This document shows, piece after piece, positions 3,187-36,061 of a DNA stretch of 42,858 nucleotides. Below the pieces are notes generated by a model. That model was not told the origin of the DNA. It did no database searches and saw only the letters and a program-made list of their open reading frames with translations. The position numbers and the translations under genes are program-made. The number at the start of each line of letters is the position of its first letter. The first letter of the stretch is position 1. The stretch is from sequence record NC_072811.1; one strand, given 5' to 3'. This stretch comes from Escherichia phage Halfdan.

Positions 3187-3623
3187 TAGCGGAACCCCCA
3201 AACGTCGATAATGCGATGCGTTACCGGAACTTGCACAATTCCGACCGGATGCAAACAGGCAAACGCCTTATTGCGGTAGAACACACCCAAGCCGCAACGT
3301 TGGTCTACGCGACCTTTGCCGACGGATGCGCGGGGCCATTGAATGCAAACAACGTCGCCGTCTTTGGCTTCGGATAGGTCAATGATTCGACCGCCGACAG
3401 GCTTAACCAACGTTTCGAATACTTCCCGAACGACGACCGTTCCGAAGGTATCGTTAAGCATCATTGCGCAAGTTGATTCGTCCTTATAAGTCCGAATATC
3501 GCGCATAACGTCAACACCGGTTGCGATTTCGATAGCGCCAGCGGCAAAGGTGCAACAATCGAACTTGCCCCATTCGAAACGCTGTTCGGCGCATTCCGCC
3601 ATGTATTCGTGAATGTCTTTCAT
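3186..3623 (-). CDS. tail-associated protein, possible NlpC/P60-like cysteine peptidase
   Basis: 145 aa from ATG 3621-3623; FDCCTFAAG cysteine motif with downstream His; TAATG stop-start coupling on both sides. Confidence 0.3.
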   Translation of the reverse strand: MKDIHEYMAECAEQRFEWGKFDCCTFAAGAIEIATGVDVMRDIRTYKDESTCAMMLNDTFGTVVVREVFETLVKPVGGRIIDLSEAKDGDVVCIQWPRASVGKGRVDQRCGLGVFYRNKAFACLHPVGIVQVPVTHRIIDVWGFR

Positions 3624-4159
3624 TATGAACCCCAACGTACTTTTAATGTGGGCATCGAAGCGATGAACTTAAACCCTTTATCGTTCGGGTATTTCGCTTG
3701 CTGGTCTTCGTTAGTATACCGGGAATTAACCGAACGTGCCCAATTAATCAAGCGTGACGACGCGGAAGCCGCAACCGAAACAACTTGGCCTAAGTCAACG
3801 GTTAACGAATCAATTGTTCCGTTGAACCACGTAATCAAACCGGTTACAAGCTGGTTGTTTTTATCGACAAGCGCAATCGAAACCTTAATCGGTTTATTAC
3901 GCGTGTTTTCGTTAACAACGTCACCGGTCATAGTTGACGGAATATTAGTTAGGGTCAACTTTAACGCCGTAGCGGTTACACCGTTGGTCGTGGTGTAATC
4001 GCCGATTCGCCCAAGCGAACCGACGCCGTAATAAAGTTTTCCGCCGACAGTAATATTCCGGTCGGAAGTGTTCGCCAAGAACGGGCCACTTTCGAAACTG
4101 ATTTCTACAAAGTAAACCGGACGAACGACCTTTTCGTCGAACTGCGGGAAGTTACGCAT
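3623..4159 (-). CDS. tail protein, paralogue of the C-terminal domain of the 915-aa tail protein
   Basis: 178 aa; shares RPV(F/Y)FV and RYT(N/D)E.QQ...P.D(K/R)GFKFIA...K(V/L)(R/K)WG blocks with residues ~725-915 of ORF 4152..6899. Confidence 0.5.
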   Translation of the reverse strand: MRNFPQFDEKVVRPVYFVEISFESGPFLANTSDRNITVGGKLYYGVGSLGRIGDYTTTNGVTATALKLTLTNIPSTMTGDVVNENTRNKPIKVSIALVDKNNQLVTGLITWFNGTIDSLTVDLGQVVSVAASASSRLINWARSVNSRYTNEDQQAKYPNDKGFKFIASMPTLKVRWGS

Positions 4160-26597: not shown

Positions 26598-27001
26598 CGT
26601 TTCGACTCCTTTTCGTTGTCCAGATACAACAACGCTTCGTGTCGGTCAATCTTGCCGGTCGCGTCGCAGAAGTCGCAGTCGAACCAGTCGCCGGGGCTAA
26701 TTTCGACGCCCTGTACGCCTTTGCATTTCGGGCACGTTACGGCTTCGGCTTCGTGTGAGTAATCCGGCCCGTAAAAGTTCTTGATTACGTCGTCAGGGTT
26801 GCCGCCTGCGGCCATGTAACCGCGTGCGTATTGTGCGGCATCCGTAACCGGCATGTAACCGTCGCAGATTGCGCAAGTTACCTTTTGGCCTAACTGATAC
26901 GGCGGCGGGCCAACGTCGAACAGATGGCGCGGGCACGCGTCCAGCTTGCGGCGGTTTTCCTTGATAGCGGCGAACAGTGCGGCCGATTCTTGCTTGTTCA
27001 T
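26594..27001 (-). CDS. cysteine-rich zinc-ribbon protein
   Basis: 135 aa; three CxxC(x)G motifs (CAICDG, CPKCKG, CDFCDATG). Confidence 0.45.
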   Translation of the reverse strand: MNKQESAALFAAIKENRRKLDACPRHLFDVGPPPYQLGQKVTCAICDGYMPVTDAAQYARGYMAAGGNPDDVIKNFYGPDYSHEAEAVTCPKCKGVQGVEISPGDWFDCDFCDATGKIDRHEALLYLDNEKESKR

Positions 27002-27225
27002 TTCGTCAACTCCTTAATAAGATGCGGCGTATAAGGCGACAGCTTGGACGCCCGAAATATACCCTTGCACCAACATTCGCCGTTCGCTTCAATTCCGACG
27101 TAATAGCTTTCGCCATAGTCGGCCGACAGCTTCGCGGCGATTTCTTGCGGCGTCCATTTCAAAGCCAAAAGGGCCGTAGCTTTCGCCTTGGCCCTTATGA
27201 GTTCGCATCGCAAACAGTTAATCAT
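26998..27225 (-). CDS. hypothetical protein
   Basis: 75 aa from ATG 27223-27225; upstream part of the track ORF is an Arg-rich out-of-frame overlap. Confidence 0.35.
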   Translation of the reverse strand: MINCLRCELIRAKAKATALLALKWTPQEIAAKLSADYGESYYVGIEANGECWCKGIFRASKLSPYTPHLIKELTK

Positions 27226-27520
27226 AATCGTAAAAGTCCGGTTCGTAATCCGGTTCGCGTAACGATTCGTTGTATCCGAATTCGCCCGGCCCGGCCTGTT
27301 CCAGTTTATCCGCGATGACCGCCAGCCCTTTCGGCAAGTTGTCGTAATCGACTTCTTCGCCGTCAATGGTAAACACGCCTTCCGATGCTTCGGATTCTTC
27401 CGGGTAGCAGTTTTCCGGCGCACCCCAAAGACGGGCGGGAGTGACCGACAGAACGTAAGTGCATTCAAGAATGCGGCCGTCGGTCATTTCGAAAGAAGTG
27501 GTTACGTCGTATGCTGGCAT
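27218..27520 (-). CDS. highly acidic small protein (candidate DNA mimic)
   Basis: 101 aa from ATG 27518-27520; about 24 Asp/Glu against 5 Lys/Arg. Confidence 0.45.
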   Translation of the reverse strand: MPAYDVTTSFEMTDGRILECTYVLSVTPARLWGAPENCYPEESEASEGVFTIDGEEVDYDNLPKGLAVIADKLEQAGPGEFGYNESLREPDYEPDFYDYD

Positions 27521-27539
27521 GATTGCGGTTCCTGTTTCG

Positions 27540-27716: not shown

Positions 27717-27923
27717 CTATGCTTGGTTGTAGTTCCGATAAAAGTAATAACCCTTATCGTCGTTGCCGAACGTCCAACCGTAAATGGAATGGGTGCGTTC
27801 GTCCAACTGTTCCGATTTTAAACCGGCCGCTTTCAGGTTGTCAAGGGCTTGTTTCAGCGTTTTAGCCGATTCAAGATGCGACCCGTTTTTCGCGATGCGG
27901 TCGTTATGCCGTTGTACCGTCAT
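27717..27923 (-). CDS. hypothetical protein
   Basis: 68-aa ORF. Confidence 0.35.
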   Translation of the reverse strand: MTVQRHNDRIAKNGSHLESAKTLKQALDNLKAAGLKSEQLDERTHSIYGWTFGNDDKGYYFYRNYNQA

Positions 27924-33293: not shown

Positions 33294-33917
33294 ATGACCC
33301 AACCCAAACCCTTCAACTATCAAGCGGAAGCCGTGCAAACCCTGTCGGCTTCGTTCTTTGGCGAATTCGTAAGCCGCGCCGAATTGCTTGGCGCACTGCA
33401 AGCGTTCAGCATCGCCGCCGCCCGGCTTGACGAAATCAAGAAACGCCTGTTCTACGGCCGCAACGTCGAAGCGATGCCGATGTTCGTTCCCGAAGAATCC
33501 ATCGAATCCAGCGAAATGCCTTGGACTTCGGCCGAAGAAACCATCGCGCACGCAATCATCGGCGTCGGCACCGAAGCGGGCGAACTGGCCGACGGTCTTA
33601 TCGCCGCACTGATTAACAAGTTCGGCGGCCAGCCTACCGGCTTCGACCTTGTGAACCTTGGCGAAGAAGGCGGCGACGTTCTTTGGTATCTGGCCGCACT
33701 GGCCCAAGGAACCGAAATCAGCATCGACGGTATGATGCGGGCGAACATCGCCAAACTTCGCAAACGCTACCCGAACAAGTTTACCGCATACGACGCGAAT
33801 AACCGCGACCTTGGCGGCGAACGCGACATTCTGGAATTGATGCAACCGAACTTGCCGGGTATCACTTCGCCGGATGCCGAATTGAAACATCGCATCGAAA
33901 GCGAAAAAGACGCTTGA
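33294..33917 (+). CDS. MazG-like nucleoside triphosphate pyrophosphohydrolase
   Basis: 207 aa; TEAGELAD and GEEGGDVLWYLAAL motifs. Confidence 0.7.
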   Translation: MTQPKPFNYQAEAVQTLSASFFGEFVSRAELLGALQAFSIAAARLDEIKKRLFYGRNVEAMPMFVPEESIESSEMPWTSAEETIAHAIIGVGTEAGELADGLIAALINKFGGQPTGFDLVNLGEEGGDVLWYLAALAQGTEISIDGMMRANIAKLRKRYPNKFTAYDANNRDLGGERDILELMQPNLPGITSPDAELKHRIESEKDA

Positions 33918-35251: not shown

Positions 35252-36061
35252 ATGGCTCAATTGATGCAAGCGTTCGACGCACGTAACGTAGACCCGACCC
35301 AAGGCGTCGGCGGTTTGCCAATCGGCAAGCATCCGGTTATCGCTATCAAGTCGGAAGTAAAGCCGACCAAGGATAACGATTCCGGTTATCTGCAATTCGA
35401 CTTGCAGGTTATCGACGGCCCGAACAAAGGTGCGGTCGGCGCTTACCGCCTGAACCTGTACCATACCAACCCGCAAACCGTCGAAATCGCGCACAAACAG
35501 TTGTCGGCTTTGTGCCACGTTACCGGCGTGTTCCAAGTGCAAGATTCGCAACAGTTGCACAACATCCCGTTTATGGTCGAAGTCGGGTTGCAGAAAGAAC
35601 CGAACCCGAACAAGTACACCGACGTAAAACGCGTGTTCGATATCAACGGTAACGAACCCGGCCACGCCAACGGCAACGGTCAAGCCGCGCAGAACAACGG
35701 CGGCCAAGCCGGTAACAACGGCGGTTCGTGGGGCAACCAGCAACAGAACGGCGGCCAGAACCAGCAGCAAAACAACGGCGGCAATAACGCCGGTTGGGGC
35801 GGTCAATCGCAAGTCGCGAACAACGTTCCGATGCCGGATAACAACGGCGGTAACAACCAGAACCAAGGCCAGAACAACGGCGGCGGTAATCCGGGTTGGG
35901 GCCAGAACAACGGCAACAACGGCCAGCAGGGCAACCAGCAGGGCGGCGGCTGGCAAGGCAACCAGCAGGGCAACCAAGGCCAGCAGCAAGGCAACGGCGG
36001 CGGCTGGAACCAGAACCAAGGCAACGGCGGCGGCCAACCGGCTTGGGGCCAACCGCGCTAA
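35252..36061 (+). CDS. putative ssDNA-binding partner of Sak4 with G/N/Q/W-rich C-terminal tail
   Basis: 269 aa from ATG 35252; globular N-terminal ~140 aa then ~130-aa low-complexity tail with periodic GW; functional call by context. Confidence 0.4.
   Translation: MAQLMQAFDARNVDPTQGVGGLPIGKHPVIAIKSEVKPTKDNDSGYLQFDLQVIDGPNKGAVGAYRLNLYHTNPQTVEIAHKQLSALCHVTGVFQVQDSQQLHNIPFMVEVGLQKEPNPNKYTDVKRVFDINGNEPGHANGNGQAAQNNGGQAGNNGGSWGNQQQNGGQNQQQNNGGNNAGWGGQSQVANNVPMPDNNGGNNQNQGQNNGGGNPGWGQNNGNNGQQGNQQGGGWQGNQQGNQGQQQGNGGGWNQNQGNGGGQPAWGQPR

What the first reader, a model, noticed from the sequence alone, without database searches (positions are those of the whole stretch)
27218..27520. Strongly acidic 101-aa protein in the accessory region: candidate DNA mimic / anti-restriction factor
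The protein from ATG 27520 carries about 24 Asp/Glu against 5 Lys/Arg, with an especially acidic C-terminus (EPDYEPDFYDYD). Small, very acidic early phage proteins are often DNA mimics that inhibit restriction enzymes or other DNA-binding defence proteins (Ocr and ArdA are the known paradigms). It sits among small zinc-ribbon and membrane proteins typical of a counter-defence island.
Basis: inference. Interest (0 to 1): 0.55.

Follow-up and report, generated by a model that had tools for sequence, protein, structure and literature searches.

The report
Conserved acidic phage protein, function unproven
This is a real, strongly acidic 100-residue protein of coliphage Halfdan that nearly every phage of its lineage keeps at the same genome position, which makes it a good but untested candidate for a decoy that blocks a DNA-binding protein; it is unrelated to the known anti-restriction proteins Ocr and ArdA.

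Summary
The ORF is real. It runs 27520..27218 on the minus strand and encodes 100 aa, not 101. It has 24 D/E against 5 K/R and a net charge of -19.5, 4.7 SD from the other 54 proteins of the phage. The window is Escherichia phage Halfdan, where the gene is gp34, annotated as hypothetical.

It is not a fast-evolving accessory gene. It is 67% identical in Kakheti25, about the level of the capsid protein. Eight of nine whole genomes carry one such protein just downstream of the VRR-NUC nuclease gene. Three of those eight carry a different acidic family with the same kind of tail. Pavpe01, the closest relative, lacks both.

The best reading is a polyanionic decoy for a conserved DNA-metabolism protein (about 0.4). 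Anti-restriction specifically is about 0.12.

The parts
27218..27520 (-). CDS of the acidic protein (Halfdan gp34): 100 aa plus stop
   Evidence: Identical protein P0001, named 'hypothetical protein P7I17_gp34 [Escherichia phage Halfdan]'. PHROG 14000, E 1.9e-42.
27530..27533 (-). Shine-Dalgarno-like AGGA, 9 nt before the ATG
   Evidence: Read directly from the sequence.
27368..27469 (-). Residues 18-51: second strand, loop and third strand carrying the P[AG]xxxGxPExCYPxE motif shared with YuA gp49 (PF20788, PDB 3PES)
   Evidence: hhalign 95% probability, E 3.3e-8. PDB profile hit, E 8e-4. Reciprocal PHROG hits.
27338..27400 (-). Residues 41-61 (EESEASEGVFTIDGEEVDYDN): the main acidic cluster of the folded core, holding conserved acidic columns E42, E44, E47, D53 and E56
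   Evidence: Column statistics on the 82-sequence alignment. AF2 places it on strands 3 to 5.
27221..27256 (-). Residues 89-100 (EPDYEPDFYDYD): flexible acidic/aromatic C-terminal tail
   Evidence: pLDDT falls to about 60 here. Family-wide the tail is 33% D/E and 19% F/W/Y. The same tail type occurs in the second family that occupies the slot.
27218..27225 (-). ATGATTAA overlap: the stop of the acidic gene overlaps the start of the downstream 75-aa Cys-rich gene (26998-27225), which suggests translational coupling
27815..27844 (-). Best sigma-70-like site in the 13 kb scanned (TTGACA-18-TAAAAT, 11 of 12), about 300 nt upstream inside the 68-aa gene; a possible promoter for the 55-aa gene, the acidic gene and the genes after it
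   Evidence: Kept as TTGACG-18-TACAAT in Pavpe01 although the surrounding coding sequence has diverged. This is a consensus match only, not shown to be functional.

Best explanation
gp34 is a non-structural, folded, polyanionic decoy protein. A small alpha/beta core (a long beta-hairpin, a conserved loop, three short strands and one helix) displays a conserved set of carboxylates. A flexible C-terminal tail alternates acidic and aromatic residues. The proposal is that the acidic surface and tail occupy the nucleic-acid-binding site of a conserved DNA-metabolism protein during replication and recombination, and so block or redirect it. The target could be a host protein such as RecBCD or another nuclease, a type I restriction enzyme, or a nucleoid or SSB-associated factor. 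A phage protein is less likely. Shown here: the gene, its family, selection for negative charge and for the tail, its fixed genomic slot, replacement of that slot by an analogous protein, loss in one relative, and the absence of any relationship to known mimic families. Inferred: that it acts by mimicry or competition, and what it targets.
For: The acidity is an outlier at z = -4.7. It is conserved in all 88 family members, with a median net charge of -14. Twelve columns are conserved D/E, and D/E is enriched twofold at variable positions while K/R stays at a normal level. The fold is predicted with confidence (pLDDT 83) and has no enzyme-like relative. No catalytic family matches. One small acidic protein with an acidic/aromatic tail sits 1-3 genes after the VRR-NUC/Vsr-like nuclease gene in 8 of 9 whole genomes, whose hosts are gamma-, beta- and alpha-proteobacteria. 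QH3 and Kakheti25 are both Septimatrevirus but carry different families in that slot. The flanks are conserved and the cassettes differ, so a function is being maintained rather than a sequence. The tail peptide EPDYEPDYDY is identical in family 1 (Kakheti25 gp51) and family 2 (P0095). The gene is absent from Pavpe01 as a clean gene-sized indel, so it is not needed for basic lytic growth. In the Kakheti25 record the homolog gp51 has no note of detection in virions. The distant relative YuA gp49 lies four genes after a genuine Pfam 'Antirestrict' protein. Known DNA-mimic anti-defence proteins are small, acidic and broad-spectrum (EVADES preprint; gp5.9 against RecBCD, abstract of PMC9836394).
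Against: There is no experimental datum on any member of the family. I could not compute the charge geometry on the model. I had no structure jobs left for oligomers or complexes. The fold resembles no known mimic. The sequence is conserved at capsid level, which is unusual for arms-race genes and would fit a housekeeping role in replication equally well. The genome already avoids restriction sites to an extreme degree, EcoKI included, and that avoidance is the same in the relative that lacks the gene.
Confidence: 0.4

Rival explanations
1. Ocr-like anti-restriction factor, the first reader's specific claim: a double-stranded-DNA mimic that sequesters type I restriction-modification enzymes, and perhaps BREX.
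For: Charge density is comparable to Ocr (Ocr figures are from my memory). The lineage has a cross-order host range, from DLP1/DLP2 to Halfdan isolated on both E. coli and Pseudomonas taiwanensis. The distant relative YuA gp49 shares an operon with an ArdB/KlcA-type gene.
Against: No Pfam match to Ocr, ArdA or Antirestrict. The predicted fold is beta-rich and has no solved relative. No plasmid homologs were found, and ArdA/ArdB-type genes are, to my knowledge, common on plasmids. The gene sits mid-operon about 5.6 kb from the divergent regulatory region, not at a leading end. Halfdan has 0 EcoKI sites where 6-8 are expected, which hints that type I pressure is met by site avoidance; this is weak evidence, because Pfeifenkraut also has 0.
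Confidence: 0.12
2. Replication or recombination accessory protein. The acidic/aromatic tail would be a docking peptide for a phage replisome or recombination protein (polymerase, clamp, helicase, the DUF669 SSB or Sak4), in the way the acidic tails of T7 gp2.5 and gp4 and of bacterial SSB work (from my knowledge of those systems).
For: The gene lies inside the replication, recombination and nucleotide-metabolism gene string. It is conserved at capsid level. The phage's own SSB has a non-acidic Gly/Gln/Asn-rich tail. The lineage does place docking peptides on small proteins: the 76-aa protein at 39160-39390 ends in DFDIPF, and that ending is conserved. The tail is retained across two different core folds.
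Against: Pavpe01 shares the replication proteins at 67-92% identity yet has no such protein. The tail does not end in the hydrophobic residue typical of SSB-type tips, since Halfdan ends in Y-D. Most of the negative charge sits on the folded core, not the tail.
Confidence: 0.22
3. Immunity-type inhibitor or regulator of the phage's own VRR-NUC nuclease, or of the adjacent small Cys-rich protein, comparable to acidic nuclease inhibitors such as barstar or the colicin immunity proteins (from my knowledge).
For: It lies 1-3 genes downstream of the nuclease gene in every genome that has it. In Halfdan its stop overlaps the start of the 75-aa gene.
Against: Pavpe01 keeps the nuclease (76% identity) and the 75-aa protein (66% identity) without it. 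Gene order within the cluster is shuffled between genomes.
Confidence: 0.08
4. Inhibitor of host uracil-DNA glycosylase (Ugi or p56-like), tied to the phage's nucleotide-pool strategy.
For: Known UDG inhibitors are small acidic DNA mimics (from my knowledge). Among the 55 Halfdan genes, only MazG shares the slot protein's presence pattern across the nine genomes. Pavpe01, the one genome without the slot protein, has a gene annotated as a dUTPase in place of MazG and no dCMP deaminase.
Against: The correlation rests on a single loss event. No sequence or fold similarity to Ugi, SAUGI or p56 appeared in the PDB searches. Pfeifenkraut, Loki and Eidolon have the acidic protein but no detectable homolog of the Halfdan dCMP deaminase.
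Confidence: 0.06

Closest known systems
YuA gp49 (Pfam PF20788 YuA_Gp49; PHROG 6858; PDB 3PES), function unknown
   Same: A small non-structural siphovirus protein encoded late in the early/replication gene string. It shares the segment P[AG]xxxGxPExCYPxE with its flanking strands (hhalign 95%, E 3e-8 over 34 columns; PDB profile search E 8e-4; reciprocal PHROG hits).
KL1 gp49 / QH3 XCB08950 / Eidolon gp47 family ('family 2', uncharacterized)
   Same: It occupies the same slot after the nuclease gene. The proteins are similar in size (84-97 aa) and acidic (median net charge -9.5 over 63 homologs). They carry the same tail type, down to the identical peptide EPDYEPDYDY.
   Different: No direct profile-profile similarity to gp34's family (hhalign 0.4%, E 0.15). 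The only link is indirect, through the C-terminal half of YuA gp49 (50%, E 1.7e-4).
Ocr (T7 gp0.3) and ArdA: double-stranded-DNA mimics that inhibit type I restriction enzymes
   Same: Small, non-enzymatic, very acidic, phage-encoded, and dispensable on permissive hosts.
   Different: No sequence match. The predicted topology is beta-rich, whereas Ocr is all-helical (the Ocr fold is from my memory), and neither fold search returned them among the listed matches. The genome position differs. No plasmid homologs were found.
T7 gp5.9 and lambda Gam: RecBCD inhibitors encoded beside phage recombination genes
   Same: A small acidic protein encoded within a phage recombination module (here Cas4-like exonuclease, Sak4, SSB and VRR-NUC). 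The target would be conserved across hosts, which would explain lineage-wide retention. PMC9836394 describes gp5.9 as targeting RecBCD (abstract).
   Different: No sequence or fold similarity was detected. Sphingomonas, the alphaproteobacterial host of Eidolon, would be expected to use AddAB rather than RecBCD (my knowledge, not checked here). The activity is untested.
Acidic C-terminal tails of bacterial SSB (…DDDIPF) and of T7 gp2.5 and gp4
   Same: A flexible tail rich in Asp/Glu with aromatic residues near the C-terminus. In those systems the tail competes with single-stranded DNA or docks partner proteins (from my knowledge).
   Different: The motif here is [DE]P[DE]Y repeats, not DIPF. 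Only 52% of family members end in an aromatic residue or an aromatic followed by one acidic residue. A true DFDIPF tip is found on a different Halfdan protein, at 39160-39390.

Membership tests
PHROG 14000 (unknown function) | Full-length match to the family profile | tested here: met
   E 1.9e-42, residues 1-98 against profile positions 1-100 of 101.
Ocr (T7 gp0.3) | Sequence membership in the Pfam Ocr family | tested here: not met
   No Pfam family matched at E <= 10. Ocr is not among the families hit by any of the 82 members, and no Ocr chain appears in the PDB profile searches.
Ocr (T7 gp0.3) | All-helical dimer shaped like bent B-form DNA | tested here: not met
Ocr (T7 gp0.3) | Inhibits type I restriction-modification enzymes | not testable with these tools
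   Requires plating or biochemical assays.
ArdA and ArdB/KlcA anti-restriction proteins | Pfam ArdA or Antirestrict (PF03230) domain | tested here: not met
   No hit for gp34 or its family. As a positive control for the search, YuA gp45 hits PF03230 at E 1.6e-27.
ArdA and ArdB/KlcA anti-restriction proteins | Occurrence on plasmids and conjugative elements | tested here: not met
   tblastn against 72,556 plasmids found no match.
YuA_Gp49 (PF20788; PDB 3PES) | Match to the Pfam model above its gathering score (27 bits) | tested here: not met
   No hit for gp34. One of 82 members matches at E 0.028. YuA gp49 itself scores 126 bits.
YuA_Gp49 (PF20788; PDB 3PES) | Remote homology by profile comparison | tested here: inconclusive
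   95% probability and E 3.3e-8, but over only 34 columns. 3PES is absent from the listed structural matches.
DNA-mimic proteins (a functional class with no common fold) | High density of surface negative charge that is conserved among homologs | tested here: met
   Net charge -19.5 over 100 aa. All 88 homologs are acidic and 12 columns are conserved D/E. Surface exposure is inferred from the pattern of alternating residues in the strands; it was not computed.
DNA-mimic proteins (a functional class with no common fold) | Carboxylate spacing that matches a phosphate backbone, and binding in the DNA site of a target protein | not testable with these tools
   Model coordinates cannot be reached from the scripting tool.
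SSB-type acidic C-terminal docking tails | An acidic stretch ending in a conserved hydrophobic or aromatic C-terminal residue (DIPF-like tip) | tested here: inconclusive
   The tail is 33% D/E and 19% F/W/Y. 52% of members end in an aromatic residue or an aromatic followed by one acidic residue. Halfdan ends in YD. There is no DIPF.
Ugi / p56 / SAUGI uracil-DNA-glycosylase inhibitors | Sequence or fold similarity to a solved inhibitor | tested here: not met

The most novel reading that the evidence does not exclude
The slot after the nuclease gene encodes a new class of tail-based mimic. On this reading, two core folds with no detectable direct similarity present the same short acidic/aromatic C-terminal peptide ([DE]P[DE]Y repeats). 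That peptide imitates single-stranded DNA or an SSB-like tail and plugs a hub protein conserved from alpha- to gamma-proteobacteria, such as RecBCD/AddAB or the SSB interactome. Together with the separate DFDIPF-tailed Zn-ribbon protein, this would mean the phage lineage rewires host DNA metabolism through C-terminal peptide mimicry.
Probability: 0.15. Interest if true: 0.7.

Novelty: new variant of a known kind. Interest (0 to 1): 0.45.

Why it matters
This lineage includes Septimatrevirus phages used against Pseudomonas aeruginosa and Stenotrophomonas, and it is noted for host ranges that cross genera and even orders. A small protein that almost every member retains, or replaces with an analog carrying the same tail, probably acts on something conserved across those hosts. 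Finding the target would assign a function to PHROG 14000 and probably to the structurally solved but unexplained YuA gp49 family. It could also add a new fold, and a tail-based mode of action, to the short list of nucleic-acid-mimic proteins. If the function turns out to be an ordinary replication accessory role, the result is still useful, because it would show that extreme acidity alone does not identify an anti-defence gene.

Tried and rejected
1. SUMO-like similarity. The profile hit to tandem SUMO2 (E 5.7e-4) is the sum of two weak domains (each with i-Evalue 3-5). It also needs a helix where the model has a loop, so I treated it as spurious.

2. Weak hits to taurine dioxygenase and AtsK (E 0.1-0.9) were treated as chance.

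3. Genomic context of distant metagenomic homologs. The contigs were 0.7-2 kb and told me nothing.

4. IMG/VR scans. The 82-sequence alignment was too diverse to derive search patterns. The 10-sequence alignment returned only 9 close relatives.

BFVD returned only uncharacterized homologs, including one in Acinetobacter phage IMEAB3.

6. Literature searches on Halfdan, Lokivirus, Septimatrevirus, YuA gp49, Kakheti25, PaMx42, Ab26 and DLP1 found no functional data for any homolog.

7. Restriction-site avoidance as a test of anti-restriction. Avoidance is extreme, but it is equally strong in Pavpe01, which lacks the gene. The EcoKI count of zero also occurs in a Xanthomonas phage, so this does not discriminate.

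8. Recombination as the source of the shared tail. Kakheti25 and QH3 have conserved flanks but unrelated tail-coding DNA. The 14-17 nt identity between KL1 and Kakheti25 can be explained by the same peptide combined with codon bias.

9. Direct homology between the two slot families is not detectable.

10. An upstream start at TTG 27625 was rejected because it overlaps the upstream gene and is not conserved.

Full report
**What the window is.** The 42,858-bp window is essentially the genome of Escherichia phage Halfdan. It is 98% identical to the Halfdan Juelich variant (PP954860, isolated on Pseudomonas taiwanensis) and to phage Shy (OR996328, from E. coli K-12). The target ORF translates to a protein identical to 'hypothetical protein P7I17_gp34 [Escherichia phage Halfdan]'.

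- The ATG at 27520 and the TAA at 27220-27218 on the minus strand give 100 residues.
- The composition is 10 Asp, 14 Glu, 2 Lys and 3 Arg. Net charge is -19.5 and pI is about 4.05. The C-terminus is EPDYEPDFYDYD.
- Against the other 54 proteins of the phage, charge per residue is an outlier at z = -4.7. P(>=24 D/E in 100 residues) is 3.5e-4.
- The start is sound. AGGA lies 9 nt upstream, the ten closest homologs all begin M-[PGA]-A-Y at the same position, and the only longer in-frame start (TTG 27625) runs through the upstream gene.
- The neighbours are as described: a 55-aa protein with a hydrophobic segment, a Cys-rich 75-aa protein whose ATG overlaps the stop (ATGATTAA), a 135-aa CxxC protein, a DksA-like zinc finger and a VRR-NUC nuclease.

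**The family.**
- There is no Pfam or NCBIfam match. PHROG 14000, of unknown function, matches end to end at E 2e-42.
- An exhaustive profile search of 1.84 billion representative proteins found 78 members at 50% identity. All are 62-118 aa (all but one at least 75 aa) and none is fused to another domain.
- Every one of the 88 sequences collected is acidic: median net charge -14.4, least acidic -3.2. Most have an acidic/aromatic C-terminus.
- On an 82-sequence alignment, 12 columns are at least 60% D/E: positions 11, 14, 36, 42, 44, 47, 53, 56, 71, 80, 93 and 95. Only two columns are conserved basic, R16 and K64.
- In the 38 most variable columns D/E still averages 21%, against 11.5% for the proteome, while K/R is at a normal level. 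Negative charge is therefore selected both at fixed positions and overall.
- The hydrophobic core positions are conserved too: F10, L18, Y22, I52, V57, L62, L66, I69, A70 and L73. This is a folded protein, not merely a low-complexity acidic peptide.

**Structure.** With the 82-sequence alignment, AlphaFold2 gives a mean pLDDT of 82.8. The model has a long beta-hairpin (3-11 and 17-27), a conserved loop (28-41), three short strands (42-45, 49-52, 55-57), a helix (66-75), a strand (84-88) and a lower-confidence tail.
- Foldseek against the PDB, run on the earlier 10-sequence model (pLDDT 73), found nothing below E 0.19.
- BFVD returned only uncharacterized phage homologs.
- No known DNA mimic appears among the listed matches.

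**The one link to something known.** The family profile hits PDB 3PES ('gp49') at E 8e-4. I showed that 3PES is Pseudomonas phage YuA gp49 by translating the gene, and that it is the founding member of Pfam PF20788 and PHROG 6858.
- hhalign gives 95% probability and E 3e-8, but only over residues 18-51, the motif P[AG]xxxGxPExCYPxE with its flanking strands.
- The function of YuA gp49 is unknown.
- It lies four genes downstream of YuA gp45, which is a genuine Pfam 'Antirestrict' protein at E 1.6e-27. That is weak guilt by association.

**Distribution and conservation contradict the 'accessory island' premise.**
- tblastn finds the protein in 78 phage records: Halfdan, Shy, Septimatrevirus phages of Pseudomonas and Stenotrophomonas, and phages of Xanthomonas, Variovorax and Pseudoxanthomonas.
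- At the DNA level the ORF is the only part of the 751-bp region that still aligns, at about 70% identity, with 71 of those records.
- In a local proteome comparison, gp34 is 67% identical to its Kakheti25 homolog. That is about the same as the major capsid protein (66%) and above the tail tube (62%), helicase (60%), terminase (59%) and primase (57%).
- Yet it is missing from Pavpe01, the closest relative outside the Halfdan group, whose core proteins are 70-84% identical. The flanking genes there abut with 4 nt between them, a clean gene-sized indel.

**A conserved slot with two occupants.** I scanned nine whole or partial genomes with family HMMs and inspected the slot directly. Eight of nine carry exactly one small acidic protein with an acidic/aromatic tail, 1-3 genes after the VRR-NUC/Vsr-like nuclease gene.

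| Slot occupant | Genomes |
|---|---|
| Family 1 (gp34 type) | Halfdan, Kakheti25, Pfeifenkraut, Langgrundblatt2, Loki ORF44 (E 5e-6) |
| Family 2 | KL1 gp49, QH3, Eidolon gp47 |
| Neither | Pavpe01 |

- Family 2 has 63 database homologs with a median net charge of -9.5.
- It shows no direct profile similarity to family 1 (E 0.15). It does resemble the C-terminal half of YuA gp49 (50%, E 1.7e-4). YuA gp49 may therefore bridge the two families, but this is not established.
- The tails are of one type: Halfdan EPDYEPDFYDYD, Kakheti25 NEPDYEPDYDYY, KL1 NNEPDYDYDEPY, Eidolon HDDYYDDY and family-2 P0095 RDEPDYEPDYDY.
- In both families the last 12 residues are enriched in both D/E (33-36%) and F/W/Y (19-21%) relative to the body of the protein.
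- QH3 and Kakheti25 are both Septimatrevirus. Their downstream flanks are conserved but the cassettes are different, and the tail-coding DNA is unrelated. So the tail was not carried over by flanking recombination. Either the peptide is selected or it is ancient.

**Expression context.** The gene lies in the long leftward string that runs from the primase through small genes, the nuclease and dCMP deaminase to the lysis and structural genes. The best sigma-70-like match in the 13 kb scanned (TTGACA-18-TAAAAT) lies about 300 nt upstream, inside the 68-aa gene. It is preserved as TTGACG-18-TACAAT in Pavpe01. This is a consensus match only. In the Kakheti25 record, virion proteins are flagged as found by mass spectrometry, and gp51 is not flagged.

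**How it most likely works.** The following are shown: a folded, non-enzymatic, non-structural protein; position-specific and global selection for negative charge; a conserved acidic/aromatic tail; a function-preserving slot across phages of alpha-, beta- and gamma-proteobacteria; and dispensability in one lineage.

From these I infer a decoy that occupies the nucleic-acid-binding surface of a conserved DNA-metabolism protein (confidence about 0.4).

The target is open. RecBCD-type nucleases are attractive because the phage encodes its own recombination set (Cas4-like exonuclease, Sak4, SSB, VRR-NUC), as lambda pairs Red with Gam (from my knowledge). Type I restriction enzymes remain possible (about 0.12).

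The main rival is a replisome or recombination accessory that docks through its tail (about 0.22). Capsid-level conservation and the non-acidic tail of the phage SSB favour it. Pavpe01, which shares the replication proteins at 67-92% identity but lacks the gene, counts against it.

A role as inhibitor of the phage's own nuclease is weakened by the same genome. A link to uracil metabolism is suggested only by MazG sharing the same presence pattern and by the dUTPase annotated in Pavpe01, which amounts to a single evolutionary event.

**Restriction-site avoidance.** The genome avoids palindromes to an extreme degree. GATC occurs once against about 137-165 expected, CCWGG once against 37, CCGCGG never against 42, and 37 of the 64 six-base palindromes are absent. 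EcoKI sites number 0 against 6-8 expected. Avoidance is just as strong in Pavpe01, which lacks the gene. The EcoKI zero recurs in a Xanthomonas phage. This shows that restriction pressure shaped the lineage, but it neither supports nor excludes an anti-restriction role for gp34.

**Verdict.** As a kind of thing it is a new variant of a known kind, a small acidic phage protein with a fold that has no solved relative and a tail motif shared between two families. Interest is moderate. It is a well-defined candidate with a clear experimental path, but no function has been demonstrated.

Noticed in passing
whole window (1-42858): The genome avoids restriction sites and palindromes to an extreme degree. 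GATC occurs once (about 137-165 expected), CCWGG once (37 expected), CCGCGG 0 (42), GCCGGC 0 (30), CGATCG once (27), CCCGGG 0 (18) and GTCGAC 0 (17). 37 of the 64 six-base palindromes are absent, and EcoKI sites number 0 against 6-8 expected. GAAN6RTCG, by contrast, is over-represented (63 against 21). Relatives show similar avoidance, but the set of avoided sites differs: Pfeifenkraut does not avoid GATC.
   Followed up: partly
window 39160-39390 (+): A 76-aa Cys-rich (Zn-ribbon-like) protein encoded between the helicase and clamp genes ends in ...HDFDIPF. This closely resembles the C-terminal tip of bacterial SSB (…DDDIPF, from memory). The DIPF ending is kept in Pavpe01 (...MHDFDIPF) and Pfeifenkraut (...YENDIPF). 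It may be a mimic or adaptor for proteins that bind the SSB tail. No Pfam search was run on it; NCBIfam gave no match.
   Followed up: partly
window 35252-36061 (+): The phage's own single-strand DNA-binding protein (DUF669, PHROG 6015) ends in a Gly/Gln/Asn-rich, non-acidic tail (...GGGQPAWGQPR) rather than the acidic tail usual for SSBs.
   Followed up: no
window 33294-33917 (+) and 39401-39703 (+): Across nine genomes, MazG is the only Halfdan gene with the same presence pattern as the acidic slot protein: present everywhere except Pavpe01, which has a gene annotated as a dUTPase instead. The 100-aa protein at 39401-39703 (PHROG 11184, unknown function) is also missing from Pavpe01 and is 70% identical in Kakheti25. 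This rests on a single loss event, so it is only a lead.
   Followed up: partly
window 27815-27844 (-): A near-consensus sigma-70-like promoter (TTGACA-18-TAAAAT) lies inside the coding sequence of the 68-aa gene. It is conserved as TTGACG-18-TACAAT in Pavpe01 even though the coding sequence around it has diverged.
   Followed up: partly
L004 (Langgrundblatt2, ON189043) 3501-3818 (+); NC_024381 (phage Ab26) ORF46: Two probable annotation errors in public records. In Langgrundblatt2 the acidic gene (family HMM E 1e-40) is not annotated, and a 258-aa ORF on the opposite strand is annotated over it. The RefSeq copy of Ab26 labels the homolog 'endolysin', while the GenBank copy says 'hypothetical protein'.
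   Followed up: no
window 26998-27225 (-) and relatives: The 75-aa Cys-rich protein (PHROG 8564) has an LALxGW...IAxxL stretch that looks like a helix-turn-helix. In Halfdan its start overlaps the stop of the acidic gene. In Kakheti25, KL1 and QH3 its homolog instead sits directly after the nuclease gene, upstream of the acidic gene. The cluster is conserved in content but shuffled in order.
   Followed up: no
record metadata (PP954860, OR996328): Phages that are 98% identical were isolated on E. coli K-12 (Shy) and on Pseudomonas taiwanensis (the Juelich variant of Halfdan). The record files Halfdan under Lokivirus, which is otherwise an Acinetobacter phage genus. This suggests an unusually broad, cross-order host range, as reported for DLP1 and DLP2.
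   Followed up: no
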